From Kiritimatiellia bacterium (GTDB lineage: Bacteria > Verrucomicrobiota > Kiritimatiellia > UBA8416 > JAWODU01), in assembly GCA_046483125.1 (NCBI GenBank), contig JAWODU010000019.1:1911-65910 (forward strand): a DNA stretch of 64,000 nt, written 5' to 3'. Both the position numbers and the translations under genes were made by a program. Shown here piece by piece: positions 21,943-64,000 of this stretch. Position 1 is the first letter of the stretch. The number at the start of each line of letters is the position of its first letter. The notes under the pieces are model-generated. The model was given only the letters and a program-made list of their open reading frames with translations, was not told the origin of the DNA and searched no databases.

Positions 21943-22009
21943 GTTATTAATATACACCTTGTTTGGATTTTTAGCAATCTTCTCTTTTGACACAACGCAA
22001 TCGGGGGAT

Positions 22010-22204
22010 TCATACCCGGCGTAGGCCGCATCTGCCATACCCGCCGGTCTGCCCCAGCTGCCTCCAGCCACTGACCCGGTACGCCGTGCCTCGAAAAAAC
22101 TGCCCGTCAACAAAGCTCTCGGCCACCAGGATCGGATGTTTATACCGCTGTTGCCAGTCGTTACTCAGACGCTGCAGGCACAACTTCATCGTCCGGCTGG
22201 CCAA
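22010..22204 (-). mobile_element. Possible IS/transposase-associated remnant (DUF4338-like C-terminal fragment)
   Basis: The 64-aa ORF VAESFVDGQFFRGTAYRVSGWRQLGQTGGYGR resembles the conserved C-terminus of IS-associated proteins. No intact transposase or terminal inverted repeats were recognised. Confidence 0.25.
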
Positions 22205-22390
22205 GTTCGCATAGTGACAGTCCGGCAGGAGCTTATGTGTTTTTTAAGGGACGCTGACCCCGTGGCCCCGTCGCTGATTTGTCTTCTTCGCAAGGCAGAA
22301 TAATGCTTAAATACTAATTCAAGGGTTGGCCCCACGGTCCACCACGGTCCATCTTAAAACGAGCATTTCCTTCCGTTTGTCCAAGTAAGT

Positions 22391-45778: not shown

Positions 45779-45866
45779 GACTTCCCTTCTGTTTTCTTTT
45801 TTCGGAATAGGTCCCACGGTTGCCACAGCAGTTGCCATGCGCCCCGGCCGCGGAGACACGATCGCC

Positions 45867-50080: not shown

Positions 50081-50998
50081 CTACGCGTCGGGGAGGAAGC
50101 GCTTGAGCACCTGGAGGTCCTCTTCCTTCCTGTAGCTGAACGCCCACACGATGAGCTGGTTATTCTGCTTCTCGACCCTGCAGTGCACCTTCAGTTTGAA
50201 ACACCACCGGCTGATCTCGTCGCGGTGCGCTATCACATGCGGGGCCCTTCTCCGCCACAGTATCTCGCCGTTCTTCCCGGGCCTGAACACTATGCCGGGG
50301 AACCCGCGGAAGGTGTTGAGGTAGCCTGTTACCCACTCTTCCATTGATTTGTCCCCTTTAAGGAACCGGTCCGCGCAGGAGAAATGCCAGAGGTGGAACC
50401 GGCGCATCTTCCAGCGGAAAATCATGAGTTTCGAACCGATGTCGAACTTGGTGTTTTCGAGAAGAAAGTCATGGGGCACCTCAAAAGAAATGTCGTAAAG
50501 CTGCCACGGCACCAGCCCCGCCTCATTGTGCTTTATGAAGTCCGAAGAAAGCACCTTCATTATCTTAACGGGGCTTTCCCTGTCGCCAGGCATGAAATGC
50601 ACAAAGAAACAGCCCACCAGTGTTGATCGCGGGCAGAGATAAAAAGCAGTCACCAGGCTGTGTTCCACGGCGCTGAGCTCTTTTTTGTTACTTCGGGTGG
50701 GAAGGGTTTCGCGCATAATGTACTGCGTGGCGTGCCAGTCCGGAGGAAGTCCGGATATGCGTTTCGTGCGGCTGGCGCGCATCGTGAGCTTGCGCGTGGA
50801 TTTTTCGTAACGATCCAGAATCTGTTTGGGCGTGATTTTCCTGCCGGGCCTTATCCATTCCGCCTCCATGCGAACCGCGTACTCGTCTTCCAGCTCCAGG
50901 CGCGTAACTCCTTTTTTAAGGAACCTGTAGAGCGCGACTTCCCAGTTCTCCGGCACCAGAAAAGACACTCTGTCCCAGGAAATCCGGCGGGTATTCAT
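50081..50998 (-). CDS. Hypothetical soluble protein, last gene of the novel membrane-protein operon
   Basis: 305 aa with no TM helix and no recognisable family. Lies 15 nt downstream of the 985-aa membrane-protein gene. Confidence 0.5.
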   Translation of the reverse strand: MNTRRISWDRVSFLVPENWEVALYRFLKKGVTRLELEDEYAVRMEAEWIRPGRKITPKQILDRYEKSTRKLTMRASRTKRISGLPPDWHATQYIMRETLPTRSNKKELSAVEHSLVTAFYLCPRSTLVGCFFVHFMPGDRESPVKIMKVLSSDFIKHNEAGLVPWQLYDISFEVPHDFLLENTKFDIGSKLMIFRWKMRRFHLWHFSCADRFLKGDKSMEEWVTGYLNTFRGFPGIVFRPGKNGEILWRRRAPHVIAHRDEISRWCFKLKVHCRVEKQNNQLIVWAFSYRKEEDLQVLKRFLPDA

Positions 50999-51013: not shown

Positions 51014-53971
51014 TCAGAACCTGTTGAGGGTCACGCCGAACAGGCACATGAAAAGTTCACCCAGTATCAATCCGATAAACATGGCGCGAAACTGGGCGTA
51101 GGTCCGGTTGTCGCCGTACTTGCTGACCATCGTCTTGAACAGCCAGCCCAGCAGAATGGAAAACCAGTACTGCCACATCAGCGGGTTGACCCACATTATC
51201 AGGCCGATAGGGTGCGGAAGCCAGAAAACGCGCTGGCGCAAGAATATCAGCGCCCCCATCACGATAACGCCGGTAAGAAGCCAGTACTTGCCGCCGGCCA
51301 CGTCCGTGGGCTCACTCTGGGCCATGTTTTTGATCTCGCTGAATATGTCCGTAAGGGCGGTGCTGTAGAACCACCCATGCATTCCGTCGGCCCCGTTTTT
51401 GTATCCCAGAATAATGTGAGTGGCAATGGCAACGACGGTGGCCGCCAGAATGCCGAATGCCACCGCGGTGTGGAACCTGAGGCGTCCCATTTTCACGTTG
51501 TCCCTCACCTTGAGCGCGTTGGCCATGGCCGGGGCTATGAAAGCCTTTATGTCCCAGAAGAAAATATACAGGTAGCACACCAGCGGAGCCAGAAGCGGAG
51601 CGGCGGTCCAGGCCTTGTTCATGCCGACAACGTGCCTGATAAGGTGAAACGGTCCGAAGAAACACTGGAATCCCAGCAGGCCCCCCTCCGTCACCGCCCT
51701 GACCAGCCCGATCGTGATAACCAGCACTACCAGGTAAACGAAAATGGAAAAGTAGATGTTGGCGCCCAGCCCCCAGGTCAGCACTCCTACCAGCCCCGCG
51801 GAACAGAAAACAAAGAGAAAGGACGAAATCCTGAGTTCCGTGCGCTCCGGCTTCTCCAGTTCGGAGACGGCCCCGGGCCTGAACGCGCAGAAAAGGTACT
51901 GGCGGCATTTCCACAATATCACCGCGGCGAACGCGGTGAGGGCGCCTCCGCCTATGGCGGTACGGAAATTCAGGAGCGAAGTCATGCCCTTGGGAAAGGA
52001 ATTCAGGTTTTCCCCGTAGCCCATCCACACCAGCACGAGCGTCAGGACCATGAAAACAAGATGAAAGAACCAGAGGGAAAAGGATATCTTTGCCGGAATC
52101 AGGAAGGTGAGACCTACCAGCGTAAAAATTATCTGATGGTGGGCGTTAGGTAAGAGCCCCGCAAACGGGCTGTTCTGAATGTACGGCGTCCAGTCATACC
52201 TGAGAGCTATATCACCCGCTCCGGGAATAATCTGCTTTGTGGCCAGCAGGTTCCACCCCATAACCCCTATGGATATCGCCGCACCCGTCCAGAACATTCC
52301 GTTTCTGTAAAGCGCCGGTACCCGTCCGCCGTTCTCGTCGTAGGCGCCGCTGAGATAAGTGGGCAGTTCCGCCAGAGGATAGATCAATTTCTCGTTATAG
52401 GCCCACTGGCGGAATATCAGGACGTTAAACGTCATGAGCACCGTATAGGTAAGGAGAATCACCACCGCCCACTTCGCGAGAGGGCCGACCCACTTTTTCC
52501 ACGGCACGTTACCGGCCGCGAAAGTGCGCAGGTCGCCGTCGAAAGTCCTGAACGCGGCCATTTCCGATTCGATCTTTTCGACAAGAGCGGGGCAACCCCC
52601 GGGCACCGCCGTTTCGGACTCGGCCGAAAGTTCCTCAAGGTTTTCCATGGTCTCGGCAACGACCCCGGCGGTCGCCAGGGACGGTTTCACTTTGCGGTCC
52701 AGTCTGGAGTTAAGCGATTCAAGATTTTTCTTCTTCTTGTCTACCCACTTCTGTACTTTCTTTATTCTCCTGGTAAGCTCTTCGGCAGTTTCGTCCATTG
52801 CGTACCGTCTCTGCTCCCTGAGCAGTCTCAAGTGCTTTTCTTCGTCCCCTATCTCCTCGCGCAGGTTGTTTATTTTCGCTTCCAGGTCCGCCTGGCGCTC
52901 TTCAAGTTCGGGAAGACCTGCCAATGGTTCAAGCATTCCGGCGGCTTCGGCAATCAATGCCGCCGCCTCTTTGCCCGTCCGGGGCCCTGAACTGTCTTCA
53001 AGCATGCTGCGGGCCTTTTCCAGCAACTCGAGCGAGTCGGTGCCGCGGCTGAAACGGCGTACGCGGTACATGTACGAGTGAAGTCCCTCTCCGGGATCGT
53101 ATATGAACCCGGGCACAGCCCGCAGTTCGCCCGGAAGGCCCCTGCGGAATTGCTCCACGGTTTCAAAAGTGCCGGCCTTTGCCTCGGCCAGTTCCCCGGC
53201 GCGTTCGTCCTTTGTCTCCTGAAGTAACCGGATTTTTTCCGGAAAAGTATCCAGGACTTTCCCGCGGTTGTACTCGCCTTCGTATTCTTTCCAGGCTTCG
53301 CGCGCCCTCTCCAGCGCCTGCCTGATTACCAAAACCTGGTGTCTCAGCGGCTCCGCCCGAAGCGTTCTTTCTTTCTCGTCGGGAATCTTCTCGAGTTCGT
53401 GAAGTTTCGCGGTGACTTCTTCGAGATTTTCCGCCGCCGCCTGCACGTTCGCGGCGGCGCGGTATACCTTCTTTGCCCTGTCCCACTTGAGTTCAGCGTC
53501 CCTTGCCTCGATGGCGGCCTCGCGGATCCCGTCCTCGGCCACGAAGAAGTCGTCGTTGACGTAAGGTTCCACGTAAAGGTCCCAGCGGGACTGCATATTG
53601 TTCCAGTCCGGGTTGAATAGGCCCGAGGTAAGCGGCACGAGCTGTGAAGCCAGCCCGAAAGTGGAAACCCCGCCCGAAACAGCCCCCATAACAAAAACTA
53701 TGAGGAGTTCGGTTGGTGTGAACCTGCGTATGAAGCGGACAAATTTCAGCAGTGGGTTAATCAGCACTACTCCAACGGCAAGCAATATGTAAGGCAGGAC
53801 CGCAATCTGAGTAGAGGTGATGATGTGGCCCGGCACGTTCTCCTGATACACGGTGTACCAGGCAAAAAGACCCGCGAAGATCATGCCCAGCAGAAAGGAC
53901 CGCAGTGTTATGCGGTTCCTCTTCGGCTCCTCGCCCCATTTCCCGGATTTATCTTTCACACCATTACTCAT
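51014..53971 (-). CDS. Large polytopic membrane protein (985 aa) with a roughly 350-aa coiled-coil insertion, paralogue of 54113-56122
   Basis: More than 12 predicted TM helices. The E/K/R-rich heptad-like insert lies between TM helices. The C-terminus VSKYGDNRTYAQFRAMFIGLILGELFMCLFG is homologous to the C-terminus of the upstream paralogue. Confidence 0.6.
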   Translation of the reverse strand: MSNGVKDKSGKWGEEPKRNRITLRSFLLGMIFAGLFAWYTVYQENVPGHIITSTQIAVLPYILLAVGVVLINPLLKFVRFIRRFTPTELLIVFVMGAVSGGVSTFGLASQLVPLTSGLFNPDWNNMQSRWDLYVEPYVNDDFFVAEDGIREAAIEARDAELKWDRAKKVYRAAANVQAAAENLEEVTAKLHELEKIPDEKERTLRAEPLRHQVLVIRQALERAREAWKEYEGEYNRGKVLDTFPEKIRLLQETKDERAGELAEAKAGTFETVEQFRRGLPGELRAVPGFIYDPGEGLHSYMYRVRRFSRGTDSLELLEKARSMLEDSSGPRTGKEAAALIAEAAGMLEPLAGLPELEERQADLEAKINNLREEIGDEEKHLRLLREQRRYAMDETAEELTRRIKKVQKWVDKKKKNLESLNSRLDRKVKPSLATAGVVAETMENLEELSAESETAVPGGCPALVEKIESEMAAFRTFDGDLRTFAAGNVPWKKWVGPLAKWAVVILLTYTVLMTFNVLIFRQWAYNEKLIYPLAELPTYLSGAYDENGGRVPALYRNGMFWTGAAISIGVMGWNLLATKQIIPGAGDIALRYDWTPYIQNSPFAGLLPNAHHQIIFTLVGLTFLIPAKISFSLWFFHLVFMVLTLVLVWMGYGENLNSFPKGMTSLLNFRTAIGGGALTAFAAVILWKCRQYLFCAFRPGAVSELEKPERTELRISSFLFVFCSAGLVGVLTWGLGANIYFSIFVYLVVLVITIGLVRAVTEGGLLGFQCFFGPFHLIRHVVGMNKAWTAAPLLAPLVCYLYIFFWDIKAFIAPAMANALKVRDNVKMGRLRFHTAVAFGILAATVVAIATHIILGYKNGADGMHGWFYSTALTDIFSEIKNMAQSEPTDVAGGKYWLLTGVIVMGALIFLRQRVFWLPHPIGLIMWVNPLMWQYWFSILLGWLFKTMVSKYGDNRTYAQFRAMFIGLILGELFMCLFGVTLNRF

Positions 53972-54112: not shown

Positions 54113-56122
54113 CTACCACGGCGTCGGACTCAACATCCTGGATATCACGTTAAAAGACAACGCTATCATGGACGTCAGTCCCAACCCGCATCCAAACCCC
54201 GCCATGATCGCCGTCATGTACTTGAGCCACATGTCCTTGTACTTGCGCTTGAAATGAAAACGCGCCACGGCCGCGCCCAGCATCGTGCAGAAAACCGCAC
54301 CCGGGTTGCTCTGCGCCAGCCCCCATACCGCCCCGAATATAAGCATTATGGGCATTCCCACGGCCGAAAGGATCGCAAAAAGCGACGAACCCGATATGAA
54401 ACCCCATAGCGCGTAGTCCAGGTTCATGGCCTCCAGGAACTGCGATCCTCCCTCCTGCGTGGCGGTAATCATAACCGCCCAGTTTCTCAGCTTAAGCGGC
54501 CACATCTTCTGCGTGTACGGATACGCCCCGGAAGGCACCTCCGCCATCCGCCAGAGAATCTCGGAGGTCAGGAAAGAGGCTATAAGTATAATGGGAACCG
54601 TAAGAATAAGTGTCTTGACCTGGCTCTTGATCTTGGTCCCGGTCAGTTCCAGAACACGAAAACCCACCGTTTCAGAGCCGAGGTTCTGTATGGGCATGGG
54701 CACGAACCATATGTCCGTCCCCTTGTATCCGGTGAGTATAATGGTCAACTCCTTCAGGTACGGTATGTTTACCGCCCGCCCGCATATGCCTTCCAGCTTG
54801 GCGGTGGCATACGAGATAAGAGGCGTGTACAGAAGGGCGTAGAACGTCATGATCTTCCACGGATAGCTGTTGCCTATCAGGAAGACGCCCAGCAACACCC
54901 AGGAAAAGGTACTGAACAGGTATATGAACAGGGCAACGAAAATTGAAAAATCACCCCTCGCGGCGTTGCCCATCACAAGCGTTCGCCAGGTTTCCCTGGC
55001 GCGCCGGCCGAAGCTCTTGGTGTGAGTCAGTTCCCTCGACCGGGGCCTCACGGCGTTTTTCACCGTTGTGGTCAGAAACACCACGAGCTGGCTGAATGTA
55101 ACCGCAAGGGTCAACCCGATACCGAAAGCGAGGTAAAAATCAATGTGGTTGGAAAACTGCGCGTTGACGAAACCCATCTCCGGACGCCAGGTCGTCAGTA
55201 TTCCGGCCTCGTAAAGCAGGGGATTCGCCACCCAGGTCATTACCAGCCCCACGAACGCCCCCACCACGCTCCAGAACGGCACTATCATGCCTACCATGAA
55301 AGCGGCAAAATCGAGTTTCAGGTTAAAGGGAACCGCGGGAAGCACGCGCCCGATCTGCTGTGTGTAATCTATGAAAATCATCGGGATGAGTTCTATGCGC
55401 TTGGGAAGCACCGCCTGGGTTATCATCGGAACGCAGATGTAAAGCAGGCCCCATATCATTCCCAGTACGCCCCCTATGGAGAAACACCGCCAGCGCCACG
55501 TCGTCTCTTCGCCCCTGTCGGTGGAAAGGGCCACTATTCCCGCGGCCCCCACGGGCGCGAACGGGAAAGGCAGTCTTTCCACGTCGTTTACCATCCGGTA
55601 CAGGACGTACCCGAGACCGTAGTTGTCTATCCGGGTTATGAAAATGCGGAACATGGTGATGCCGATAACCGGAAGCCAGGCCAGGCTGAAAAGCGTCCGT
55701 CCGGCGCTTTGTATATCGGCGGCACGCGGGAAAGCCCACGTCGGCAGATCAACCAGGCCCAGCCCCTGAATGTATTCGGACTGCGCGACGTACTGCTTGA
55801 ACAGGAAACCGGCGAAGGGATCGGCCAGCACCGCCCCGGCCATGAAATGAAGCGTATAGAGTTCCTGGCTCTTAAGCGTGGTGAACGAACGCTTGGCAAT
55901 CTCGGCGAAGAGAATCACAAGCACCCATTTCATGGCGTTTCCGATCTGGGCGTCGTTGCCTATCACGAGCACGAGGTAATCGGTGGCCGGGTTGACTATG
56001 AACCCGAGCAGGATGGCGCCCACTACCGTCTTCCAGCTGAAACCGTCCCGGAACTCCGTGATGTCCGGGGGTTTCATAATGTCCCGGTACTCGTTGAGTT
56101 CCTTGTCGTCAACCCATGACAT
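54113..56122 (-). CDS. Large polytopic membrane protein (669 aa), paralogue of 51014-53971
   Basis: About 14 predicted TM helices. N- and C-terminal blocks align with the 985-aa protein (FMAGAVLADPFAGFL versus MGAVSGGVSTFGL; KRKYKDMWLKYMTAIMAGFGCGLG versus VSKYGDNRTYAQFRAMFIGLILGE). Confidence 0.6.
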   Translation of the reverse strand: MSWVDDKELNEYRDIMKPPDITEFRDGFSWKTVVGAILLGFIVNPATDYLVLVIGNDAQIGNAMKWVLVILFAEIAKRSFTTLKSQELYTLHFMAGAVLADPFAGFLFKQYVAQSEYIQGLGLVDLPTWAFPRAADIQSAGRTLFSLAWLPVIGITMFRIFITRIDNYGLGYVLYRMVNDVERLPFPFAPVGAAGIVALSTDRGEETTWRWRCFSIGGVLGMIWGLLYICVPMITQAVLPKRIELIPMIFIDYTQQIGRVLPAVPFNLKLDFAAFMVGMIVPFWSVVGAFVGLVMTWVANPLLYEAGILTTWRPEMGFVNAQFSNHIDFYLAFGIGLTLAVTFSQLVVFLTTTVKNAVRPRSRELTHTKSFGRRARETWRTLVMGNAARGDFSIFVALFIYLFSTFSWVLLGVFLIGNSYPWKIMTFYALLYTPLISYATAKLEGICGRAVNIPYLKELTIILTGYKGTDIWFVPMPIQNLGSETVGFRVLELTGTKIKSQVKTLILTVPIILIASFLTSEILWRMAEVPSGAYPYTQKMWPLKLRNWAVMITATQEGGSQFLEAMNLDYALWGFISGSSLFAILSAVGMPIMLIFGAVWGLAQSNPGAVFCTMLGAAVARFHFKRKYKDMWLKYMTAIMAGFGCGLGLTSMIALSFNVISRMLSPTPW

Positions 56123-56126
56123 GGTC

Positions 56127-59100
56127 TTATTCCTCTTTTCCGGAGAAAAGCTTTTCGCTTTCCTTAACGTACCAGCTGTGCTGTGTGGGGTCTATATTCC
56201 GCCACCGCATCAGGGCTTTTCTCATCCTCTGCAGGAACGGTCTGTTCGTGGTGGCCCAGTTGGTGTCCTGGCCGGAAACACGGTAAATGTCCATATACAG
56301 CCTGTAGCTTTCCACCGTTTCGTCGTAGCGGGCGTTGAATATGACCTTCTGGGTCACGCCAAGGTCAAAAGGCGCCAGCGCTACCGAGTATTCCAGGGTG
56401 TAGGCAGGACGTCCTGAATCATCCTTACTTTTATGTATTCTTTTACATGAAGCTATAAGATCGCCTATGGACTGCTCGGTAAAGTCGGAAAAATACTCGT
56501 AAAGGTAATACACGACGCCCGCGGCCAGCTCCAGCTGGTAAATAAAGGGAAACGCAACGTGCATTTTCTCTCCGTCGTTGTCGGGGAGCGACCACTTCCG
56601 GCGTCCCGAAGGCACCGCCGTGCGCGTCGCGACGTAAGCGGGGTACACCGTCGAAAGCAGAACCAGTCCCACGGTAAACAGAATGGCCCACACCACGATA
56701 AGCGAGGAGAAGTTTATGTTTATTCCCTGAATAAGACCCGCGGACTTCACCGCTATCGCCCCGATCTGGCCTATAAGGTACCCGCCTATGGCGCCGATGA
56801 AACTGTACACAAGGGCCTCGGCCAGGAAAAACGTGAAAATGTGCAGGGGGTTCAGGCCTATGGCGTTGTAAACGGCTATCTCCGAACGCCGCTCATACAC
56901 GGTCCCCAGCATCGTGTTGAAAATAATCAGCCCCGCTATCAGAAGGGGTATTACAAGTCTTGATACCCCGCCTATGGTGGTCCTGTAACTGCTCCCCACG
57001 TAGTAAACCCCCTGGTCCGTGTCCTGCTCGGCGTCTTCCCCGAGCCTGAACGGTTCCCGGCTCCCCAAGAAGAACTTCGCCCCGGTTATGCCCAGCAGAA
57101 AGTCCGCGGCCTCCCACAGCGCGGTGTCGCTACGTTCCTCTTTTCTTGTCCGGAGCCTTATGGAAACCGTGTAGGGGTCCGCGTCCATGTCTTCGGCAAG
57201 TTCCGCGGGCAGGAGTACCAGCGAAGCCATATCTATTGTGGACATCCCAACGTAGTCGGTATCGGATTCTTCAACCCCCTGGGATTTCTGCTGTGCCTCG
57301 GCTGCCTTTTCCTGAAACGGAACCAGGGGAAGCTTCGGATCCAGGTCCCGCAGAGCGCGGTACCTGCTGTCGTCAAGGATACCCGCCACCTTCAGGTCCC
57401 GGCCAAGGAACCGGACGTACGTTTCCCCGGCGTCATCCGGATGGAGCCCCAGCGCCTCGGCCATGGCCGCGGTTATTATGATTTCCTCCGCGCACGGCCC
57501 CGAAAAGAACTCACCGCCCAGAAGAGGAAACGGGCCCAGGAAATACCTGTCTTCCTGAGGCAGGCCCACTACCGCTTTCACGTCGACATTCTGCGCTTCT
57601 TCGCCCGCGAGATCGAGCCTCCAAGTAATGCGCGCATCCTTGGCGCCCCTCGGCGGCAGTTTGATCCTGCGGACAAGTACCTGGGCTTTCCCGGTAAAGA
57701 GCGTGTTAAAAACTTCCGCGGTGGCCTCGTCCATGGATTTACCGCCGGGAGCGCGGTAAAAGAGTCCCGTATAGGGGCTGTTTTCGGACTTCGATATGAG
57801 GGTCGGCTTCGCCTTCCTGGATACGCTGGAAAATGCCAGCATGGTGAATACCACCAGCACGATGGTTCCCGTGGTCAGCGAGGTGCGCACCCTGCGGCGC
57901 TTCATGTTGTTTACGCCGATAATCATCGCCGTCTGTCCCACGGTTCCGTAAGCCACGTCGAATTCCATACTGCCGGAGGTCTTGAACAGAAGTTCCATTT
58001 CGGTCTGGAACCGCTTCTTCAGAACCCAGGCTATAAACAATCCCATGGCTCCCAGAACGAAGGCTATGAATATGGCCTCTGCGTTCATTGCTATGGCAAA
58101 CGCCGGGTGGATAAAGCGGAACCCGACGTATGTGACCAGAAACAGGAGTGTAAATGCCCCCAGTTCGTGCTGAAGCTTGGTGAAATTGAAAATCAGCTTC
58201 TGAAGAAAATAACAGAACGGCACCATCATCGCCATGTACAGCATGATCGCCTTGAGCATGTCCGCGTTCATGCCCCTTATCTGGGAGTACGCCTTCACTT
58301 CCGCGCCCAGCGCCCCGTAAAGCGCGAGAAGGTATCCGGTGTGGTCCCGCTGGGCTTTTTCGGCTTCCATTCGATTGAGGGCGGATTTTCCCTTTTCAAG
58401 AAAAGTATCCAGGAGTTCGTTGGCGACGCCCTTCATTTCGTTCTTGCGGTAACGGTTGAGTTTGTCCATGTCCCGCGCCGCGACGGCGAAGAAATCCGCT
58501 CCAAGCTCTTCGGCGTTTTTATATCCGTAACCCCCCGGCTCCTTTTCCTTGGGATTGAGCGCGCACCTTTTATTTCCGGTAAGCAGGAGCAGGCGGTCTT
58601 CATGGAATCCCTCCTGCTTTTTCTTCCACAGGTAAACCGCCACCGGCCCCGTGGAAACATGGCTTTTCGCGGGCGAAAGTGAAATCGCCCCGTGCACCCC
58701 GTATTCCTCCGGCTCCGACTGCATCTGGGCGCTCTTGGGCCACCATTGATCAACTTTAACCTGGGAGCTTCCCGCCAGGGTCGGATCCTTGCGGGTATAA
58801 ACCGGGAACTCCCTGCATGGGAACATGGGCAGGGTGGTACTCGGCCCGGGCACTATGTTGCTGGTAATTTCTTCGGATTCCTGGACCCGTCCCTTGTCGA
58901 TGGTGTGGGTGACTTTTCTGAAACCTTCGCCCATGCGGTATGCCGTGGAACAAAGCTGGCCGTCATTGAGGCCGTAAATGTACGTGGAGCCGCTTATGTC
59001 GGTAATAGCCGGGTAGCAGTTGACGACGTCACCGTCAACAAGCGGAGGAACAAGCGTGTTCCCGCCGGGATAAAGGGTCACCATACAGCCGGGCACCGGA

Positions 59101-61511
59101 AGATCCGGACTGCCCTGCGAAGAGAACTCGTCGATGGCGTAGGTGCGGACCAGCGTTGACCACAGCCAGTACTGGTGCTTTCGTTCGACCTTTCCGATGG
59201 TGTCCGGAGAAGCCAGTACGGGCTCGTCTATCAGCCGGGGAAGGTAGCGGCTCAGCCATTCCATGTTCCGTTCCGCCGTGTCTGAATCCAGTCTTTCGGC
59301 CGTGTCCGCCGGGCTGAATGCGGCCCCCTCGTTCACAAACACTCCTTTAAGGGCCATCGCCGGTGTCCGGCCCGAATGGAACACCGCCGAGGGTGATTCC
59401 CATCCCGGGAAAAAACGTTTCTGGCTCTTGCCCGCGGCTCCGCCCAGGGTTTCCAGGAACGGACTTTTCTCTGTTCCCGTTTCTTCGTCTATCTCGCCGG
59501 CGACACGCAGGCACAGGTTCCCCAGCCCCCTTTCCCAGTCGGTGGTAACGTTGGGGTCCAGGGAACAGAAACCCGCCTGCTCCGCGCGCCAGTTCATGTC
59601 CAGGTTTATAACCAGGGCCACCTGCCGCATCTGGAGGGCTTCGCGCAGATTGTCATTCGATGTATCAAGCGACAGCACCTCTTCTTTTTTCCGCTCGAAC
59701 TCCCCGAACCTCTCGACCAGCGTGTCCCGGTAATCCTTCAGAATGTTCCTGTGGATATCGCTGAGCGCGATTTCACGGTAGCGCACCTTGCTTCGTCCGA
59801 TGCCCACGTCAATTTTGTTGAAAAGCCTCAATACTTTTGCCAGATCATCTTTTCTTTTTATGGCTTTTTTCCGCAGATCTTCCAGGCGCTCATCATCCAT
59901 ATCTTCCACGCGGGCTAAATCAAGAAGGCGCAGTTTCGACATGTTGAGTTCACGCTTGGCCTTTGTCTGGAGCTTGTCCTTGACCGGAAGCCTTTTCCCC
60001 GTGCTGGCGTCCATCTCGCTGCGCCATTCCTCCAGGAGTTTTTCGTCGTCGAACACCGTCTTCGCCCGCCTGAGAAGGATGAATATTTTCTCGGCGGGCC
60101 ATTGCTTCATTTCCTCGACGTGACGCCGGTCCTTTTTGAGCATCCGGATCGCCTCGCTGTCCGTGGAAAACATGGCCAGAAATCCGCCGGCTTCTTTGGA
60201 CAGTTCCTCGACTACACGGTCTATTGCGGCATAAACGTCTTCGGCGTCGAACTCGGAAAGATCAAGCTTCCAGTCTATTTCCGGCACCGGCTGAAGTTCG
60301 ATCTCCGAGGTGTCTTTTTCCTGATCCTCCAGCCGCTCAAGTTCGTTTCTTCTTTCCTCGAGCAGTTTCTCGTGCTCGGCTTCGCGTTTTTCCTGCTGGA
60401 TCTCGTCAAGTCTGCCCATGATTTCCACGGCGGCGTAAAGGTCCGAAGCCGGTATGTCCACCGGTTCGAGCTTGAGCAGGCTGTACTTATCGTGAAAAAG
60501 CCTGGCTATCCGCATTTCCGTGCCGATGGAGTCTCTGAATTTGGCGATATCTTTCATACCGGCCAGAAGGTGCCATGCCAGGACGCGCTCTCCCCGGAAG
60601 TTCTGAGTATGGGCGTTCACGGCGCAGAGCAGGACCGTCCGGGCCGGCGGCTCCCGGCGAAGTTTTTCGAGAATCTCCAGCAGAAGGCAGAGGTTTCCCG
60701 CCCCCTGGGCGCCCCAGGACCTGTCGGGCACCGCGGAGGCGGCGTCCAGCGGGGCGGTAATCACCACCACTTCCCGTCCGAGGTCAGGGTCGTTTCCCGG
60801 TATCAATACCCAGGGGCTTTCGAGCACGCTGTTGGTCCAGATCGATGGAGAAGAATGGACCCGGCATTCGAGTTCGCCGCCGCCTTCCCCGCACAGTTCC
60901 CGGAGCACAAGCCCGTCCGAATGCGTAAGGAAAAACCGGGGAAATCCGACTTCGGTATTGTAAATCTTGGACAGGGAATCTTTGTACTGGTACCTGCCCT
61001 CGCCCAGCCCCATGAAGATAACACCCGCCGGATTAAACCTCAGAAGGTCCAGCCACGCGCCGCCGCAGTCGTAATCCATAAGGAAAAAAGCCCGGTCCAG
61101 TTCAATTCCGTTCACCGCCTTCAGGTCCCGGTACCCGCCCTTACGAAGGTCCACGAGACGGGTTGTTACGGTATCGCGAGGCAGGTTCCCGGGCCGCATG
61201 AGAGTGGGATGCATTACCGACAGGTTCACAGGGAGGGCGCCTTCGGCTTCAAGCCGCCCGCTCCCCGGCTCAAAGACCGGGGCTGTGAACCGGATTACCC
61301 CGTTGGTGAACCCGGAATCCGCGAAAACGCCCGCGACTTCCCGCTGAAGAGCGAGATTCCCCTTCATTCCCGGAGCGCGGGGCTGTGCGGAAATGCTCTC
61401 CATGTCGGCGGAGAACCCCGCAAAAGCCGCGGAGACGCCCTGCAGAAGTGCAATGGAACACAACCATGAAAAACAGCGGACCACCGCTGATCCTGCCCGG
61501 CCTGAATGCAC
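56127..61511 (-). CDS. Giant (1794 aa) MacB/FtsX-type permease fusion with a roughly 1000-aa N-terminal PA/M28-like ectodomain (catalytic residues not conserved) and a coiled-coil region
   Basis: N-terminal signal anchor. PA-like (GIELDRAFFLMDYDCGGAWLDLLRFNPAGVIFMG) and M28-like (VVVITAPLDAAS...GAQGAGN) segments lack the His/Asp/Glu zinc ligands. The C-terminal half holds TM clusters and the FtsX hallmark ERRSEIAVYNAIGL followed by three TM helices, with a MacB-like periplasmic domain between TM helices. Confidence 0.65.
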   Translation of the reverse strand: MHSGRAGSAVVRCFSWLCSIALLQGVSAAFAGFSADMESISAQPRAPGMKGNLALQREVAGVFADSGFTNGVIRFTAPVFEPGSGRLEAEGALPVNLSVMHPTLMRPGNLPRDTVTTRLVDLRKGGYRDLKAVNGIELDRAFFLMDYDCGGAWLDLLRFNPAGVIFMGLGEGRYQYKDSLSKIYNTEVGFPRFFLTHSDGLVLRELCGEGGGELECRVHSSPSIWTNSVLESPWVLIPGNDPDLGREVVVITAPLDAASAVPDRSWGAQGAGNLCLLLEILEKLRREPPARTVLLCAVNAHTQNFRGERVLAWHLLAGMKDIAKFRDSIGTEMRIARLFHDKYSLLKLEPVDIPASDLYAAVEIMGRLDEIQQEKREAEHEKLLEERRNELERLEDQEKDTSEIELQPVPEIDWKLDLSEFDAEDVYAAIDRVVEELSKEAGGFLAMFSTDSEAIRMLKKDRRHVEEMKQWPAEKIFILLRRAKTVFDDEKLLEEWRSEMDASTGKRLPVKDKLQTKAKRELNMSKLRLLDLARVEDMDDERLEDLRKKAIKRKDDLAKVLRLFNKIDVGIGRSKVRYREIALSDIHRNILKDYRDTLVERFGEFERKKEEVLSLDTSNDNLREALQMRQVALVINLDMNWRAEQAGFCSLDPNVTTDWERGLGNLCLRVAGEIDEETGTEKSPFLETLGGAAGKSQKRFFPGWESPSAVFHSGRTPAMALKGVFVNEGAAFSPADTAERLDSDTAERNMEWLSRYLPRLIDEPVLASPDTIGKVERKHQYWLWSTLVRTYAIDEFSSQGSPDLPVPGCMVTLYPGGNTLVPPLVDGDVVNCYPAITDISGSTYIYGLNDGQLCSTAYRMGEGFRKVTHTIDKGRVQESEEITSNIVPGPSTTLPMFPCREFPVYTRKDPTLAGSSQVKVDQWWPKSAQMQSEPEEYGVHGAISLSPAKSHVSTGPVAVYLWKKKQEGFHEDRLLLLTGNKRCALNPKEKEPGGYGYKNAEELGADFFAVAARDMDKLNRYRKNEMKGVANELLDTFLEKGKSALNRMEAEKAQRDHTGYLLALYGALGAEVKAYSQIRGMNADMLKAIMLYMAMMVPFCYFLQKLIFNFTKLQHELGAFTLLFLVTYVGFRFIHPAFAIAMNAEAIFIAFVLGAMGLFIAWVLKKRFQTEMELLFKTSGSMEFDVAYGTVGQTAMIIGVNNMKRRRVRTSLTTGTIVLVVFTMLAFSSVSRKAKPTLISKSENSPYTGLFYRAPGGKSMDEATAEVFNTLFTGKAQVLVRRIKLPPRGAKDARITWRLDLAGEEAQNVDVKAVVGLPQEDRYFLGPFPLLGGEFFSGPCAEEIIITAAMAEALGLHPDDAGETYVRFLGRDLKVAGILDDSRYRALRDLDPKLPLVPFQEKAAEAQQKSQGVEESDTDYVGMSTIDMASLVLLPAELAEDMDADPYTVSIRLRTRKEERSDTALWEAADFLLGITGAKFFLGSREPFRLGEDAEQDTDQGVYYVGSSYRTTIGGVSRLVIPLLIAGLIIFNTMLGTVYERRSEIAVYNAIGLNPLHIFTFFLAEALVYSFIGAIGGYLIGQIGAIAVKSAGLIQGININFSSLIVVWAILFTVGLVLLSTVYPAYVATRTAVPSGRRKWSLPDNDGEKMHVAFPFIYQLELAAGVVYYLYEYFSDFTEQSIGDLIASCKRIHKSKDDSGRPAYTLEYSVALAPFDLGVTQKVIFNARYDETVESYRLYMDIYRVSGQDTNWATTNRPFLQRMRKALMRWRNIDPTQHSWYVKESEKLFSGKEE

Positions 61512-61553: not shown

Positions 61554-61943
61554 TTATCCGGCAGCCGTTTCTTCCCGTTTCAGCATGACGCTCACCAGAT
61601 TGCGTTTCATGAGTATTTTTATGAAGGCCACGACCCCGAGTTCCGATTCCCGGTAGCTCATGCCGAACTGCTTCTGAAAAGCGCGGATTATCTCAAGAAC
61701 GGTTCGTTCGTGATCTATGTTATCCACTACAAAACTACCGAATTCATCCAGCTCAAACCGCTTGTTTATGACCCGCGGCCGGAATCTTTCGAGAAAATGG
61801 TTCCGCCTGGTTTCCCTGATTTTAACACTGGACAAGCCTGAATCGGCCTTCTCGATTTTGACATTGTCCGAAATCACGGGCACCCCGGCCAGGGCGGCGC
61901 GGCGATCGATGCTGTTTCTGTGCCTTTTCCAGAATAAAGACAT
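61554..61943 (-). CDS. PqqD-family (RiPP recognition element-like) small protein, first gene of the minus-strand operon
   Basis: 129 aa. The C-terminal segment LDEFGSFVVDNIDHERTVLEIIRAFQKQFGMSYRESELGVVAFIKILMKRNLV fits the PqqD/RRE winged-helix pattern. Ends 42 nt upstream of the giant permease gene. Confidence 0.5.
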   Translation of the reverse strand: MSLFWKRHRNSIDRRAALAGVPVISDNVKIEKADSGLSSVKIRETRRNHFLERFRPRVINKRFELDEFGSFVVDNIDHERTVLEIIRAFQKQFGMSYRESELGVVAFIKILMKRNLVSVMLKREETAAG

Positions 61944-62083
61944 TCTTTGAGTTCCCCCGGCCGCGGCTCCGGCGGTTTTTTCTTGCCGCCCTGTTGCCGG
62001 GGCCCTATTAGAAACTTGCCCGGTTGAGTAATTCCATGATATATGAAGTTTTCCTGGGTCAGGTCAAGACGGATTCGAGACTA

Positions 62084-62842
62084 ATGGAAACAGCGGCAAC
62101 AAAAGACATAGTAATTCGCGCCCTTGGCGTAAAGCGCTACTACGGTGAGGGGGAAAACCTCACCAAAGCCCTCGACGGCGTAAGTCTGAACATCTACAGG
62201 GGTGAATATCTTTCGATTATGGGGCCTTCGGGATCCGGTAAAAGCACGCTTTTCAACATGATCGGCGGCATAGATTCGCCCACCGAAGGCATGGTGTTCA
62301 TTGACGAAATCGACGTGGCACAGCTCGATTCCTTTGAACTTGCCTGGATGCGCTGTCACAAAATCGGCTACATATTCCAGACCTACAATATACTTCCGGT
62401 GCTGACAGCGCTGGAAAACGTTACTTTGCCCATGACGTTCGCGGGGCTTTCACCGGACGAAGCCAGGGAAAAAGGGCGTGAAATCCTGCGGATCGTCGGT
62501 CTCGGCGACAGGGTCTTTCACCGCCCCTTCGAGCTTTCGGGCGGTCAACAGCAGAGGGTAGCCGTGGCAAGGGCCATAGCCAACGATCCGGTCATCGTTC
62601 TTGCCGACGAACCGACCGCCAACCTGGACGTGGACACCGGCCAGGAAATCATTGATCTCCTGGCCAAACTCAAGGAAGAGCGGGGAATGACCGTGATTTC
62701 GGCGACTCACGACATGAAGATGCTCGATATCTCCGACCGGATACTCTGGATAAGAGACGGACGCGTCCAGAGGCTGGAGGACCGCAGGAATCTGGACATC
62801 AACGTGGGCGGCATCGGGGGCAGATCAAAGCAGGCAGTCTGA
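62084..62842 (+). CDS. ABC transporter ATP-binding protein (MacB/LolD-type)
   Basis: Walker A GPSGSGKST, signature LSGGQQQRV and Walker B LADEPT. Likely start at the ATG at 62084 (METAATKDIVIRALGV); the track ORF starts at 62024. Confidence 0.85.
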   Translation: METAATKDIVIRALGVKRYYGEGENLTKALDGVSLNIYRGEYLSIMGPSGSGKSTLFNMIGGIDSPTEGMVFIDEIDVAQLDSFELAWMRCHKIGYIFQTYNILPVLTALENVTLPMTFAGLSPDEAREKGREILRIVGLGDRVFHRPFELSGGQQQRVAVARAIANDPVIVLADEPTANLDVDTGQEIIDLLAKLKEERGMTVISATHDMKMLDISDRILWIRDGRVQRLEDRRNLDINVGGIGGRSKQAV

Positions 62843-62855
62843 AAGGAAAACCATC

Positions 62856-63557
62856 TTGGCCGACACAGCAACAGCCAGTCGCGCCGCCGCTCCCGCCGGC
62901 GGCCTCAAGGGAACCATTCCCGAACAGTCCCCTCTGCCGTGGAACATGATCTGCCGGGTGGCGTCCGCCGGAATGAAGCGCCGCATGACGCGCTCCGTTA
63001 TGAGCATATCCATTGTCGTTCTGGCAATCGCCTTCGTGGCCTACATGCTGATTATAGACAACATTACCGTGTCCCTCGTAGCCGTGCGCGACAGTCGTCT
63101 TGCCGTACTGCTCCAGGAGAAAGGGGTCGAGGTATACGGCCGCACCGGAACGGATGAGATGACGGTTCTGCTGATAAGTCTGGCACTGCTTACCTGTACC
63201 GTGGGGATAGTAAACTCCATGCTGATGTCGGTAACCGAGCGGGTCCGTGAAATAGGAACGCTCAAATGCCTCGGCGCCAGGGACCTGTTCATCGTGAAAA
63301 CCTATTTTGTGGAAGCCACACTGCAGGGCATATTCGGCTCCATCTGCGGGATGGTTCTAGGGGTGCTGGTCGCGGTACTCGTCTCCATGACCGATTACCC
63401 CGGTTACGTTCTGCCCAACCTGCCGTACGGGACCATAGGGCGCTCGCTCCTGCTGGCCTTTCTCGCGGGTCTTGTTATATCGGTGATAGCGGCCATAGCC
63501 CCGGCCTATGCCGCCGCCCGCAAACAGCCCGTTGACGCGCTCAGGGTTGAAGAATGA
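62856..63557 (+). CDS. Minimal FtsX-family ABC permease (233 aa, 4 TM, no large periplasmic domain)
   Basis: TERVREIGTLKCLGA FtsX hallmark, with one TM helix before it and three after it. Confidence 0.7.
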   Translation: MADTATASRAAAPAGGLKGTIPEQSPLPWNMICRVASAGMKRRMTRSVMSISIVVLAIAFVAYMLIIDNITVSLVAVRDSRLAVLLQEKGVEVYGRTGTDEMTVLLISLALLTCTVGIVNSMLMSVTERVREIGTLKCLGARDLFIVKTYFVEATLQGIFGSICGMVLGVLVAVLVSMTDYPGYVLPNLPYGTIGRSLLLAFLAGLVISVIAAIAPAYAAARKQPVDALRVEE

Positions 63558-64000
63558 CAGACAACGCTCTCATATCGGTACGCGACGTCGCCAAGGTTTA
63601 CCGCATGGGCGACGAGGAAGTGCACGCCCTGCGGAACATTACCGCCGACATAGCCCGCGGCGAATACGTATCCATCATGGGGCCTTCCGGCTCGGGAAAA
63701 TCCACTCTCTTCAACATGATCGGCGGTCTGGACACTCCAAGCGGCGGTGAAGTTGTCGTGGACGGATGGAAACTGGCGGACCTCAACTCCGACCAGCTCG
63801 CGTGGTTCAGGAACCGCAACATCGGCTTCATTTTTCAGAACTTCAACCTGGTGCCCACAATGACCGCCGCCGAAAACGTGGCCATTGCCAGGATGTTTAC
63901 CGGTGTTTCCGCTCACGAGGCCAACGAAGCCGCCGGCCGGGTCCTGGAAAAAGTCGGGCTGGGGCACCGTCTCCATCACCTTCCCGGGGAAGTGTCCGGA
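63554..64000 (+). CDS. Second ABC transporter ATP-binding protein (MacB-type), 3' partial at window end
   Basis: Its ATG overlaps the permease stop (ATGA). Walker A GPSGSGKST. The frame is open to the end of the window. Confidence 0.85.
   Translation, partial: MTDNALISVRDVAKVYRMGDEEVHALRNITADIARGEYVSIMGPSGSGKSTLFNMIGGLDTPSGGEVVVDGWKLADLNSDQLAWFRNRNIGFIFQNFNLVPTMTAAENVAIARMFTGVSAHEANEAAGRVLEKVGLGHRLHHLPGEVSG

What the first reader, a model, noticed from the sequence alone, without database searches (positions are those of the whole stretch)
56127..61511. 1794-aa tandem-FtsX permease carrying a probably non-catalytic PA/M28-like ectodomain and a coiled-coil stalk
The C-terminal roughly 750 aa have the TM1, periplasmic-domain and FtsX TM2-4 layout of MacB/YbbP permeases. 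The N-terminal roughly 1000 aa include PA-like and M28 aminopeptidase-like segments in which the canonical zinc ligands (H-x-D, DD, EE) are replaced (APLDAAS, GAQGAGN). A long E/K/R-rich coiled-coil follows. The fusion implies a mechanotransmission-type ABC machine with a large extracytoplasmic binding, not hydrolytic, module.
Basis: partly seen in the sequence, partly recalled or inferred. Interest (0 to 1): 0.6.

Follow-up and report, generated by a model that had tools for sequence, protein, structure and literature searches.

The report
Giant FtsX permease with pseudo-aminopeptidase ectodomain
This 1794-residue membrane protein joins one MacB/FtsX-type ABC-transporter membrane unit to a large periplasmic domain that has the fold of a zinc aminopeptidase but lacks its catalytic residues; it is the core of a conserved, widespread and unstudied multi-gene envelope system.

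Summary
The ORF is real and conserved: at least 578 loci in species-representative genomes and 779 clusters at 50% identity. From the N-terminus it has a signal/anchor helix and a PA-domain M28 aminopeptidase fold. That fold is split by a 300-aa charged helical insert. A 235-aa beta-rich domain, a helical stalk and three extra TM helices follow. Then come one FtsX unit (TM1, MacB-like periplasmic domain, TM2-4) and a conserved 160-aa cytoplasmic tail domain.

The M28 metal ligands and catalytic Glu are missing across the whole family, with His301 at the Glu position. Residues in the vestigial pocket stay conserved, which points to binding rather than hydrolysis.

There is one FtsX unit, not a tandem. 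The "coiled coil" is a clade-specific insert inside the M28 fold (about 10, 158 or 300 aa in different clades), not the stalk.

The gene sits in a conserved set: a PqqD-like protein, the giant, an OPT-like 669-aa protein, a DUF6785/6784 protein, a 305-aa cytosolic protein, two MacB-type ATPases and a minimal 4-TM FtsX.

Best reading: a heteromeric type VII ABC mechanotransducer that moves a non-catalytic binding ectodomain. The substrate is unknown. I found no literature.

The parts
56127..61511 (-). Giant ORF, 1794 aa: FtsX-family permease with a pseudo-M28 ectodomain.
   Evidence: There are 41 full-length homologs at 40-52% identity (close) and 22-31% (distant).
61407..61475 (-). N-terminal hydrophobic segment, aa 13-35. 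It is either a signal peptide or an uncleaved anchor ('TM0').
   Evidence: Hydropathy. In homologs P0017-P0027 and in L006, L010 and L042, a PqqD domain is fused upstream of this segment. That fusion implies an N-in orientation.
60522..61391 (-). First part of the M28 fold, aa 41-330. It includes the PA (apical) domain at aa ~101-225 and the degenerate motifs P254-L-D256, G-A-Q269 and H301-T302.
59622..60521 (-). It has about 8 helices, the longest 42 residues.
   Evidence: DSSP of the model. 43.7% charged and lowest conservation of all modules. Length classes of ~300, ~158 and ~10-24 aa among homologs.
59202..59621 (-). Second part of the M28 fold, aa 631-770.
   Evidence: It aligns to the region that completes the Pfam M28 hit (profile 4-190 of 193) in the insert-less P0035. 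Transferrin-receptor alignments span ~720-735 columns.
58497..59201 (-). Beta-rich domain, aa 771-1005. Its length is constant at ~235 aa and its fold was not identified.
   Evidence: It gave no sequence match in PDB or Pfam.
58260..58496 (-). Helical stalk, aa 1006-1084, running into the membrane.
   Evidence: Models. A continuous helix covers aa ~1057-1107.
58002..58259 (-). Three extra TM helices, aa 1085-1170. This is a family hallmark, with a conserved P1098-F1099 and an H1135-P-A-F turn. It is not FtsX-like.
56607..57929 (-). The single FtsX unit, aa 1195-1635. It has an RRR motif, TM1 (aa 1210-1232), a MacB-like periplasmic domain (aa 1233-1510) and TM2-4 (aa 1511-1630).
   Evidence: PADLOC profile PDLC01991 matches both TM1+ECD and TM2-4.
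56130..56606 (-). Conserved cytoplasmic C-terminal domain, aa 1636-1794 (beta-alpha-beta4-alpha2).
   Evidence: Model. 24 positions are at least 90% conserved. Only weak SRPBCC/START-like fold hits, E~0.06.
61554..61943 (-). PqqD-like small protein, 129 aa, immediately upstream. It is fused to the giant in some homologs.
   Evidence: Pfam PqqD E=1.4e-5, above the family cutoff..
54113..56122 (-). OPT-superfamily-like polytopic membrane protein, 669 aa. Its start lies 4 nt after the giant's stop.
   Evidence: Pfam OPT E=2.5e-4 here. 6 of 19 orthologs hit OPT, best E=1e-7. It is adjacent to the giant in 37 of 40 loci with full flanks.
51014..53971 (-). DUF6785/DUF6784 polytopic membrane protein, 985 aa, with a ~370-aa periplasmic coiled-coil insert.
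   Evidence: It co-occurs in 26 of 40 loci. In L004 the insert is LamG_3/DUF2341 instead.
50081..50998 (-). Soluble 305-aa protein of unknown fold ('u305').
   Evidence: No Pfam, NCBIfam or PDB match. It co-occurs in 22 of 40 loci.
62024..62842 (+). ABC ATPase 1 (MacB/LolD type), divergently transcribed.
   Evidence: Pfam ABC_tran E=4e-32. Walker A, signature, Walker B-Glu and H-loop are present in the sequence. It forms a distinct orthologous lineage from ATPase 2.
62856..63557 (+). Minimal FtsX permease, 233 aa (ORF as called from the first start codon). It has 4 TM helices and only ~33 aa between TM1 and TM2.
   Evidence: Pfam FtsX E=2.3e-21. Hydropathy. hhalign 98.3% to the giant's TM2-4. 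Present in 29 of 40 loci.
63554..64000 (+). ABC ATPase 2. Its start overlaps the short FtsX stop, and the gene is cut by the window end.
   Evidence: Translation. A second ATPase lineage always follows the short FtsX in PVC loci.

Best explanation
The protein is the large subunit of a heteromeric type VII (MacB/LolCDE/FtsEX-like) ABC machine.

Shown:
- It has one FtsX unit with a MacB-like periplasmic domain.
- About 1050 aa of it are extracytoplasmic. This part is a PA-domain M28 fold that has lost the di-zinc site and the catalytic Glu, plus a beta-rich domain and a helical stalk continuous with the membrane helices.
- It has three extra family-specific TM helices and a conserved cytoplasmic tail domain.
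- Its genes are conserved together with a minimal 4-TM FtsX, one or two MacB-type ATPases, an OPT-like protein, a DUF6785 protein, a PqqD-like protein and a 305-aa soluble protein.

Inferred:
- The giant's FtsX unit pairs with the minimal FtsX, as LolC pairs with LolE, under two ATPase subunits. These would be ATPase 1 plus ATPase 2 in PVC bacteria, and two copies of one ATPase elsewhere.
- ATP binding and hydrolysis move the TM and stalk helices. This motion is passed to the ectodomain.
- The ectodomain acts as a non-hydrolytic binding clamp for a periplasmic peptide, protein terminus or cell-wall component. Transferrin receptor, nicastrin and nicalin use the same fold for binding, and FtsEX drives the degenerate peptidase domain of EnvC in a similar way.
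- The extra TM helices and the insert-bearing face probably dock the two OPT-like polytopic partners. These may take up or deliver the bound ligand.
- The substrate is not known.
For: - Architecture.
- Loss of catalytic residues across 79 members. The His97 equivalent is P/A/S/Y/F, with His in 2 of 79. The catalytic Glu151 equivalent is His in 73 of 79. The Glu152 equivalent is never Glu. The His256 equivalent is variable.
- The vestigial pocket is still constrained. D256, P262, G267, H301 and G307 are at least 90% conserved.
- Extracytoplasmic location. There is an N-terminal hydrophobic segment, a PqqD domain fused upstream of it in homologs, and the FtsX topology.
- ATPases and the minimal FtsX are adjacent, with intact motifs.
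- Synteny in 40 loci with full flanks: OPT-like 37, ATPase 30, short FtsX 29, DUF6785 26, PqqD 23, u305 22.
- Clades with a single ATPase still carry both FtsX proteins. PVC clades carry two conserved ATPase lineages.
- No adaptor or TolC-like gene belongs to the conserved set.
- One family member has three LysM-like repeats in its ectodomain, which places the module near peptidoglycan.
Against: - Nothing here tests ATPase coupling, subunit stoichiometry or ligand binding.
- The near-invariant D256 and H301, together with D/E269 and D638 in the insert-less clade, could form a remodelled mononuclear metal site, so catalysis is not excluded.
- In mid-clade PVC loci one ATPase sits next to PqqD and the giant, and the other next to the short FtsX. 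That order would also fit two separate transporters.
- Constant association with OPT-like proteins hints at true transport, which classical mechanotransmission does not need.
- Ten of the 40 full-flank loci show no ATPase, and 11 show no short FtsX, within 10 kb.
- The C-terminal model is only moderately confident (pLDDT 79, pTM 0.59).
Confidence: 0.5

Rival explanations
1. Tandem-FtsX, self-sufficient permease. The anchor helix, ectodomain and 3-TM block would form a degenerate first FtsX unit. The giant would then be a pseudo-dimer like YbbP, BceB or ADOP and bind two ATPases by itself. The short FtsX would belong to a separate transporter.
For: - The topology (TM0, big ectodomain, 3 TM, then TM1, ECD, 3 TM) mimics a duplicated FtsX.
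- Foldseek alignments to YbbP (565 columns) and BceB (625 columns) are longer than those to single-unit permeases (~480 columns).
- The best NCBIfam hit is the ADOP duplicated permease, but it is weak and covers one unit only.
- In mid-clade loci each ATPase sits next to a different FtsX gene.
Against: - There is a single Pfam FtsX hit.
- hhalign of the 3-TM block against the giant's own FtsX or the short FtsX gives 0.2-0.5% probability, against 98.3% for the control.
- The cytoplasmic loop between the first two extra helices is ~8 aa, too short for the coupling helix that contacts an ATPase.
- Clades with one ATPase still keep both FtsX genes next to each other.
- The YbbP and BceB fold matches have E-values four to five orders of magnitude weaker than those to MacB, LolE and other single-unit permeases.
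Confidence: 0.12
2. Active but remodelled metallopeptidase. The ectodomain would still hydrolyse peptides using a new site built from D256, H301, D638 and, in some clades, D/E269. The ABC part would position or regulate it, and the products would be taken up by the OPT-like partners.
For: - D256 and H301 are near-invariant.
- In the insert-less clade the bridging-Asp and Asp179 equivalents are mostly retained: E/D in 28 of 33 and D in 29 of 33.
- The OPT family transports oligopeptides (established knowledge), and OPT-like genes are the tightest partner.
Against: - The catalytic Glu is never present, and three of the five ligands are lost in every clade.
- In the window's clade the bridging Asp is Gln, Ser, Glu or Asp, so it is not conserved.
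- Eukaryotic relatives with similar losses (transferrin receptor, nicastrin, nicalin) are non-catalytic (established knowledge). There are weak sequence hits to nicalin and nicastrin.
Confidence: 0.12
3. FtsEX-EnvC-like regulator of cell-wall hydrolases. The pseudo-peptidase and helical module would be a built-in EnvC analogue that switches a periplasmic hydrolase on and off. This is a specific sub-case of the main explanation.
For: - FtsX-type unit plus helical module plus degenerate peptidase fold.
- LysM-like repeats and an NMB0315-domain hit in P0248.
Against: - No amidase or LytM gene is in the conserved gene set.
- The helical insert is absent in a third of the family.
- LysM was seen in one member only.
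- The OPT-like partners are left unexplained.
Confidence: 0.12
4. Antiviral defence or signalling effector related to the 'CARF_m8--CARF_LolE_TM' proteins in PADLOC.
For: PADLOC PDLC01991 matches at 141 bits (E=7.5e-42). PDLC01990, a 1791-position profile named CARF_Beta-galactosidase_LolE_TM, matches at 82 bits.
Against: - Only the FtsX unit matches: profile positions 170-360 and 426-577. The N-terminal part of the profile does not match, and neither the ectodomain nor the tail domain matches on its own.
- The PqqD-like protein does not match.
- The neighbourhood is housekeeping, and the system is inherited across many phyla in a fixed gene order.
Confidence: 0.04

Closest known systems
MacB / LolCDE / FtsEX (type VII ABC transporters, mechanotransmission mechanism)
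   Same: - One 4-TM FtsX unit with TM1, periplasmic domain and TM2-4.
- A MacB-like periplasmic core domain.
- Long helices extending from the membrane.
- MacB/LolD-type ATPase genes adjacent.
- Two different FtsX proteins in one gene set, as with LolC and LolE.
   Different: - About 1050 extra extracytoplasmic residues, three extra TM helices and a cytoplasmic tail domain.
- The partner FtsX has almost no periplasmic domain.
- There are two ATPase paralogs in PVC bacteria.
- There is no adaptor or TolC.
- It is associated with OPT-like and DUF6785 proteins.
FtsEX-EnvC
   Same: An FtsX-type ABC machine coupled to a helical module and a catalytically dead peptidase-fold domain.
   Different: - EnvC is a separate protein with a LytM (M23) fold and a coiled coil that docks on the FtsX periplasmic domain.
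- Here the dead peptidase fold is M28 with a PA domain and is covalently part of the permease.
- The helical part is an optional insert.
PA-domain M28 aminopeptidases (Aneurinibacillus AM-1 aminopeptidase 2ek8, B. subtilis BSAP/YwaD 6hc6, P. aeruginosa PaAP 8acr)
   Same: Same fold, including the PA insert. Sequence-profile E=5e-9 and Foldseek E=1e-12 to 1e-11.
   Different: - The metal ligands and catalytic Glu are replaced.
- The fold is split by a 300-aa insert.
- The domain is tethered to a membrane machine.
Transferrin receptor 1, GCPII, nicastrin and nicalin
   Same: - M28/PA-type ectodomain on a membrane protein.
- In TfR, nicastrin and nicalin it is non-catalytic and used for binding or gating within membrane complexes.
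- Foldseek to TfR E=4e-12 and to GCPII E=2e-10. Weak profile hits to nicalin (E=0.017) and nicastrin (E=0.3).
   Different: - These are eukaryotic single-pass proteins with no ABC unit.
- The helical domain of TfR and GCPII is C-terminal, not an insert.
- No homology beyond the shared fold was shown.
YbbP / BceB / ADOP duplicated FtsX permeases
   Same: Large FtsX-family permeases with 8-10 TM helices. Weak fold matches with long alignments.
   Different: They have two recognisable FtsX domains. Here there is only one.
PADLOC 'CARF_m8--CARF_LolE_TM' and 'CARF_Beta-galactosidase_LolE_TM' profiles
   Same: - They hold the closest FtsX unit found, at 141 bits against 51 bits for Pfam FtsX.
- The second profile is also ~1800 positions long, with a large non-FtsX part.
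   Different: - The part of the profile N-terminal to the FtsX unit is not matched.
- The paper that defined these groups (PMC7498327) could not be read here.

Membership tests
FtsX/MacB-type (type VII ABC) permease | FtsX TM2-4 domain detectable by profile | tested here: met
   Pfam PF02687 E=2.2e-13, aa 1521-1631. The PDB profile search hits MacB 5lil at 3.4e-11.
FtsX/MacB-type (type VII ABC) permease | TM1, then an extracytoplasmic domain of MacB (Porter/Sabre) type, then TM2-4 | tested here: met
   Hydropathy. Foldseek matches MacB, LolE, LolC, YtrF and HrtB over ~480 columns, and the isolated MacB periplasmic domains 5c59 and 5lj8. Homologs carry a Pfam MacB_PCD hit.
FtsX/MacB-type (type VII ABC) permease | Cognate MacB/LolD-type ATPase encoded with it | tested here: met
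   ABC_tran genes at 62024-62842 and 63554 to the window end. An ATPase is present in 30 of 40 full-flank loci. Physical coupling was not tested.
Duplicated (tandem) FtsX permease (ADOP/YbbP/BceB type) | Two FtsX domains in one chain | tested here: not met
   One Pfam hit only. The 3-TM block against FtsX profiles gives 0.2-0.5% hhalign probability, against 98.3% for the control.
Peptidase family M28 (as a fold) | M28 alpha/beta fold recognisable by sequence profile and by structure | tested here: met
   2ek8 E=5e-9. Foldseek E=9e-13. Pfam PF04389 is above its cutoff in homologs and covers profile positions 4-190 of 193 in P0035. The window protein itself gives no Pfam M28 hit at E<0.1.
Peptidase family M28 (as an enzyme) | Five metal ligands (His, Asp, Glu, Asp, His) and the catalytic Glu | tested here: not met
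   Window protein: P254, Q269, T302, D638, H712(?), with H301 at the catalytic Glu position. Across 79 members the Glu-Glu pair is never present and the first His is present in 2. The assignment of the last two positions rests on a family alignment, not on a structural superposition.
PA (protease-associated) domain | PA insert within the peptidase fold | tested here: met
   The profile alignment to 2ek8 runs through its PA region. The top fold matches are all PA-bearing M28 proteins.
FtsEX-EnvC-type hydrolase regulator | Helical module docks on the FtsX periplasmic domain and controls a cell-wall hydrolase | not testable with these tools
   No complex prediction was available. No hydrolase gene is in the conserved set.
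CARF_m8-LolE_TM (PADLOC) | CARF domain N-terminal to the LolE-like unit | tested here: not met
   Only profile positions 170-577 match. The N-terminal 1100 aa and the PqqD-like protein give no PADLOC hit.
OPT oligopeptide transporter family (neighbour 54113-56122) | Pfam OPT at or above the gathering score | tested here: inconclusive
   20.3 bits against a cutoff of 25.8 here. 6 of 19 orthologs match at E<0.01, best 1.1e-7.

The most novel reading that the evidence does not exclude
The seven- or eight-gene set encodes a previously unrecognised kind of envelope machine. In it, an ABC motor (two ATPases, a minimal FtsX and the giant's FtsX unit) drives a nicastrin-like pseudo-aminopeptidase lid. 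The lid captures peptide or protein termini, or cell-wall peptides, in the periplasm. It hands them to, or gates, two OPT-superfamily channels. Cytoplasmic PqqD-like and u305 proteins would act as peptide-binding accessories. This would be a new way of coupling ATP to an otherwise secondary-transporter fold.
Probability: 0.15. Interest if true: 0.85.

Novelty: new variant of a known kind. Interest (0 to 1): 0.62.

Why it matters
Type VII ABC systems such as MacB, LolCDE, FtsEX and BceAB are the main examples of ATP-driven work done outside the cytoplasmic membrane. Each characterised member has revealed a different envelope process.

This family is large. It has at least 578 loci in species-representative genomes across PVC bacteria, Armatimonadota, Omnitrophota, Desulfobacterota, Nitrospirota, Dependentiae and others. 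It also has 779 clusters at 50% identity. It is annotated only as 'ABC transporter permease', and I found no paper on it or on its DUF6785 partner.

It combines three things not known together:
- a MacB-type motor;
- a bacterial counterpart of the non-catalytic M28 ectodomains of transferrin receptor, nicastrin and nicalin;
- OPT-like polytopic proteins.

Working out its substrate could reveal a new envelope or uptake function in phyla that are mostly uncultured. A cultivated carrier exists (a Maridesulfovibrio sp. genome, CP182345), so experiments are feasible.

Tried and rejected
- Tandem-FtsX was tested by Pfam, NCBIfam and profile-profile comparison and rejected.
- The beta-rich domain plus 3-TM block was compared with the FtsX unit as a whole. 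No similarity was found, 0.4%.
- DUF6785 was compared with the OPT-like partner by hhalign. Probability was 0.7%, with only a shared '(E)kL-PFP-A' motif, so paralogy is not shown.
- PDB sequence searches for the OPT-like partner and for u305 found nothing usable.
- The defence-system reading from PADLOC was considered and set aside, because only the FtsX unit matches.
- Four literature searches returned nothing relevant: DUF6785/DUF6784; FtsX + PqqD + OPT + M28; FtsX + peptidase M28; CARF_m8/LolE.
- The Makarova 2020 CARF paper is not held.
- An exact-sequence look-up of the window protein found no record, so the source organism is only inferred to be a PVC (Kiritimatiellia-like) bacterium from the best hits.
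- A search with the C-terminal 295 aa returned mostly gene fragments from short contigs. Two apparently short relatives (P0101, P0102) gave uninformative or fragmented contexts.
- Apparent N-terminal extensions in several loci were artefacts of my own ORF calling.
Full report
**Observation.** The window holds an uninterrupted ORF at 56127-61511 on the minus strand, 1794 codons with a GTG start. It is a real gene. A word-indexed search found 41 relatives. Full-length relatives at 40-52% identity come from Kiritimatiellae, Verrucomicrobia and Lentisphaerae MAGs. A second tier at 22-31% identity comes from Desulfovibrionales and others. The best 80 are nearly all full length, from PVC bacteria, Armatimonadota, Omnitrophota, Nitrospirota, Latescibacterota, Desantisbacteria and a Vermiphilus (Dependentiae) MAG. 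An exhaustive HMMER search used only the family-specific middle (aa 640-1180). It found 779 cluster representatives at E≤1e-3 and 345 at E≤1e-10, almost all 1400-2450 aa long.

**Anatomy.** Hydropathy gives the following:
- an N-terminal hydrophobic segment, aa 13-35
- three TM helices at aa 1085-1166
- an RRR motif followed by a TM helix at aa 1210-1232
- a 280-aa loop
- three TM helices at aa 1511-1630
- a 165-aa tail

Pfam finds exactly one FtsX domain, aa 1521-1631, E=2.2e-13. The family profile hits MacB, YtrF and LolC in the PDB. An AF2 model of aa 1046-1794 (pLDDT 79) matches MacB, Spr0694-type permease, LolE/LolC, YtrF and HrtB over about 480 columns. The loop matches the isolated MacB periplasmic domain.

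**Not a tandem.** The three extra helices were compared, as a family profile, with the giant's own TM2-4 and with the neighbouring short FtsX. Probabilities were 0.2-0.5%. The control, giant TM2-4 versus the short FtsX, gave 98.3%. The cytoplasmic loop between the first two extra helices is about 8 residues. That leaves no room for the coupling helix that FtsX units use to contact their ATPase. Fold matches to the truly duplicated YbbP and BceB exist, with longer alignments, but their E-values are four to five orders of magnitude weaker. The title word 'tandem' is not supported.

**Ectodomain.** The model of aa 36-1085 is confident (pLDDT 91.1, pTM 0.88). Its best structural matches are PA-domain M28 aminopeptidases: 2ek8, BSAP/YwaD and PaAP. 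Transferrin receptor 1 and GCPII follow, all at E=1e-12 to 1e-9. Independently, the sequence profile hits 2ek8 at E=5e-9 across profile positions 28-327, running through the PA domain. It hits YwaD at 5e-4 and gives weak hits to nicalin and nicastrin. The HxD motif is P254-L-D256, GADD is G-A-Q269-G, and EE is H301-T302.

In an alignment of 79 family members this is a family trait:

| M28 position | Residue in the family |
|---|---|
| First His | P/A/S/Y/F; His in 2 of 79 |
| Catalytic Glu | His in 73 of 79 |
| Ligand Glu | Never Glu |
| Last His | Variable |
| Bridging Asp | Gln or variable in the window's clade; E/D in 28 of 33 in the insert-less clade |

D256, P262, G267, H301 and G307 are at least 90% conserved. 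The old active-site region is therefore under selection even though the M28 chemistry is gone. That pattern fits a binding site better than a decaying relic. It leaves a small chance of a remodelled catalytic site.

**The 'coiled coil'.** Residues 331-630 are 43.7% charged and are predicted as about eight helices, the longest 42 residues. This is not a stalk following the peptidase fold. It is an insert within it. After it, the chain resumes with strands and helices that align to the second half of M28 in relatives. Among 79 homologs the insert is about 300 aa (the window's clade), about 158 aa (other PVC bacteria) or 10-24 aa (Armatimonadota, Omnitrophota and others). Every other module keeps its length within a few residues. 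In the insert-less P0035 the Pfam M28 hit is contiguous, profile positions 4-190 of 193, E=1.7e-10. The insert is the least conserved part of the protein. In two distant members the same loop carries a hydrophobic hairpin instead. This suggests, but does not show, that this face of the M28 domain looks toward the membrane.

Downstream of the M28 fold lie two further modules. One is a 235-aa beta-rich domain of constant length with no identifiable relatives. The other is a helical stretch, aa ~1006-1084, that continues directly into the first extra TM helix. This is the real stalk.

**Tail domain.** Residues 1636-1794 form a conserved beta-alpha-beta4-alpha2 domain, with 24 positions at least 90% conserved. 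It has only weak SRPBCC/START-like fold hits, so it is left unassigned.

**Neighbourhood.**
- On the same strand: a PqqD-like protein lies 42 nt upstream. An OPT-like 669-aa polytopic protein starts 4 nt after the giant's stop. A DUF6785/DUF6784 protein of 985 aa carries a ~370-aa periplasmic coiled-coil insert. A 305-aa soluble protein has no known relatives.
- Divergently transcribed: a MacB/LolD-type ATPase. A 233-aa FtsX with four TM helices and almost no periplasmic domain. A second ATPase whose start overlaps the short FtsX stop and which runs off the window.

This set is conserved. Among 40 related loci with at least 6 kb upstream and 8 kb downstream, the counts are as follows:

| Partner gene | Loci (of 40) |
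|---|---|
| OPT-like | 37 |
| ATPase | 30 |
| Short FtsX | 29 |
| DUF6785 | 26 |
| PqqD | 23 (plus fusions) |
| 305-aa protein | 22 |

A Maridesulfovibrio genome has all of them in one operon. PqqD is fused to the N-terminus of the giant in several homologs, upstream of the hydrophobic segment. This fixes the N-terminus in the cytoplasm and the ectodomain outside. PVC loci carry two distinct ATPase lineages, one always following the short FtsX. Other clades have one ATPase but still both FtsX proteins. No membrane-fusion or TolC-like gene belongs to the set.

**Mechanism.** The following are shown: the architecture, the loss of M28 catalytic residues, the extracytoplasmic placement and the conserved gene set. 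The rest is inferred.
- The giant's single FtsX unit probably pairs with the minimal FtsX under two ATPase subunits, as LolC pairs with LolE.
- ATP-driven movement of the TM and stalk helices would be passed to the ectodomain.
- The ectodomain would bind rather than cut a periplasmic ligand.
- The extra TM helices, and perhaps the insert, would dock the OPT-like and DUF6785 partners.

One hint points to a cell-wall ligand: P0248 has three LysM-like repeats in its ectodomain. Hints for a peptide ligand are the aminopeptidase fold, the OPT-like partners and the PqqD-like peptide-binding fold. I put 0.5 on the general model and much less on any particular substrate.

**Comparison with known systems.** It works like MacB, LolCDE and FtsEX, and it passes the membership tests for that permease family. 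It fails the test for duplicated FtsX permeases. It has the M28/PA fold but fails the enzyme test. This mirrors transferrin receptor, nicastrin and nicalin, and functionally it recalls the dead LytM domain of EnvC driven by FtsEX.

The strongest profile match to its FtsX unit is PADLOC's 'CARF_m8--CARF_LolE_TM', at 141 bits. Only the FtsX unit matches. The context is housekeeping, with purL, asparagine synthase, glycosyltransferases and MttB-family genes in the window. I therefore do not read it as a defence gene.

**Novelty.** I found no paper on the family or on DUF6785. Database names are generic. I rate it a new variant of a known kind: a type VII ABC system with an unprecedented ectodomain and partner set.

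Noticed in passing
window 46253-46352 (-), inside ORF 45867-47333 (-): Rfam PYLIS_3 (the pyrrolysine insertion element of mttB) scores 41 bits against a gathering score of 38. It lies inside an uninterrupted MttB-family ORF. A second MttB-family ORF lies next to it at 44303-45859.
   Followed up: no
window 19930-22390: A 2.4-kb stretch with low GC (0.48 against ~0.57) lies next to tRNA-Thr (19854-19929, -). It holds only short ORFs. It may be an integration remnant or a non-coding region.
   Followed up: no
window 1932-7970 (-) and 30535-33792 (-): Two other large ORFs, of 2012 aa and 1085 aa, have no Pfam match at E≤1e-5.
   Followed up: no
window 51014-53971 (-); L004 17557-21585: The DUF6785 partner carries a periplasmic insert at a fixed site. 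It is a ~370-aa coiled coil here and a LamG_3/DUF2341 module in a Kiritimatiellae MAG. Partners of ~980 aa go with giants that have a helical insert of at least 157 aa in PVC bacteria. Partners of ~650 aa go mostly with short or absent inserts (exceptions: L002 and L077).
   Followed up: partly
P0248 (2451 aa), aa ~155-480: A distant family member has three LysM-like repeats and an NMB0315-domain hit inserted in the PA/M28 region. This points to peptidoglycan contact.
   Followed up: partly
P0161, P0217 (insert after profile state 357); P0138, P0152, P0155 (N-terminal region): Some distant members carry hydrophobic hairpin-like segments in ectodomain loops. In P0161 and P0217 this is the very loop that holds the window protein's helical insert.
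   Followed up: no
L003 18282-24583: In the locus of the insert-less homolog P0035, the giant and two polytopic genes are followed by a SecDF_P1_head protein, a secretin and TPR proteins. This was seen once.
   Followed up: no
window 62024-64000 (+): The two ATPases belong to two conserved lineages in PVC loci. One is next to PqqD and the giant or leads the ABC-fX-ABC triplet. The other always follows the short FtsX. Clades with a single ATPase have an intermediate type.
   Followed up: partly
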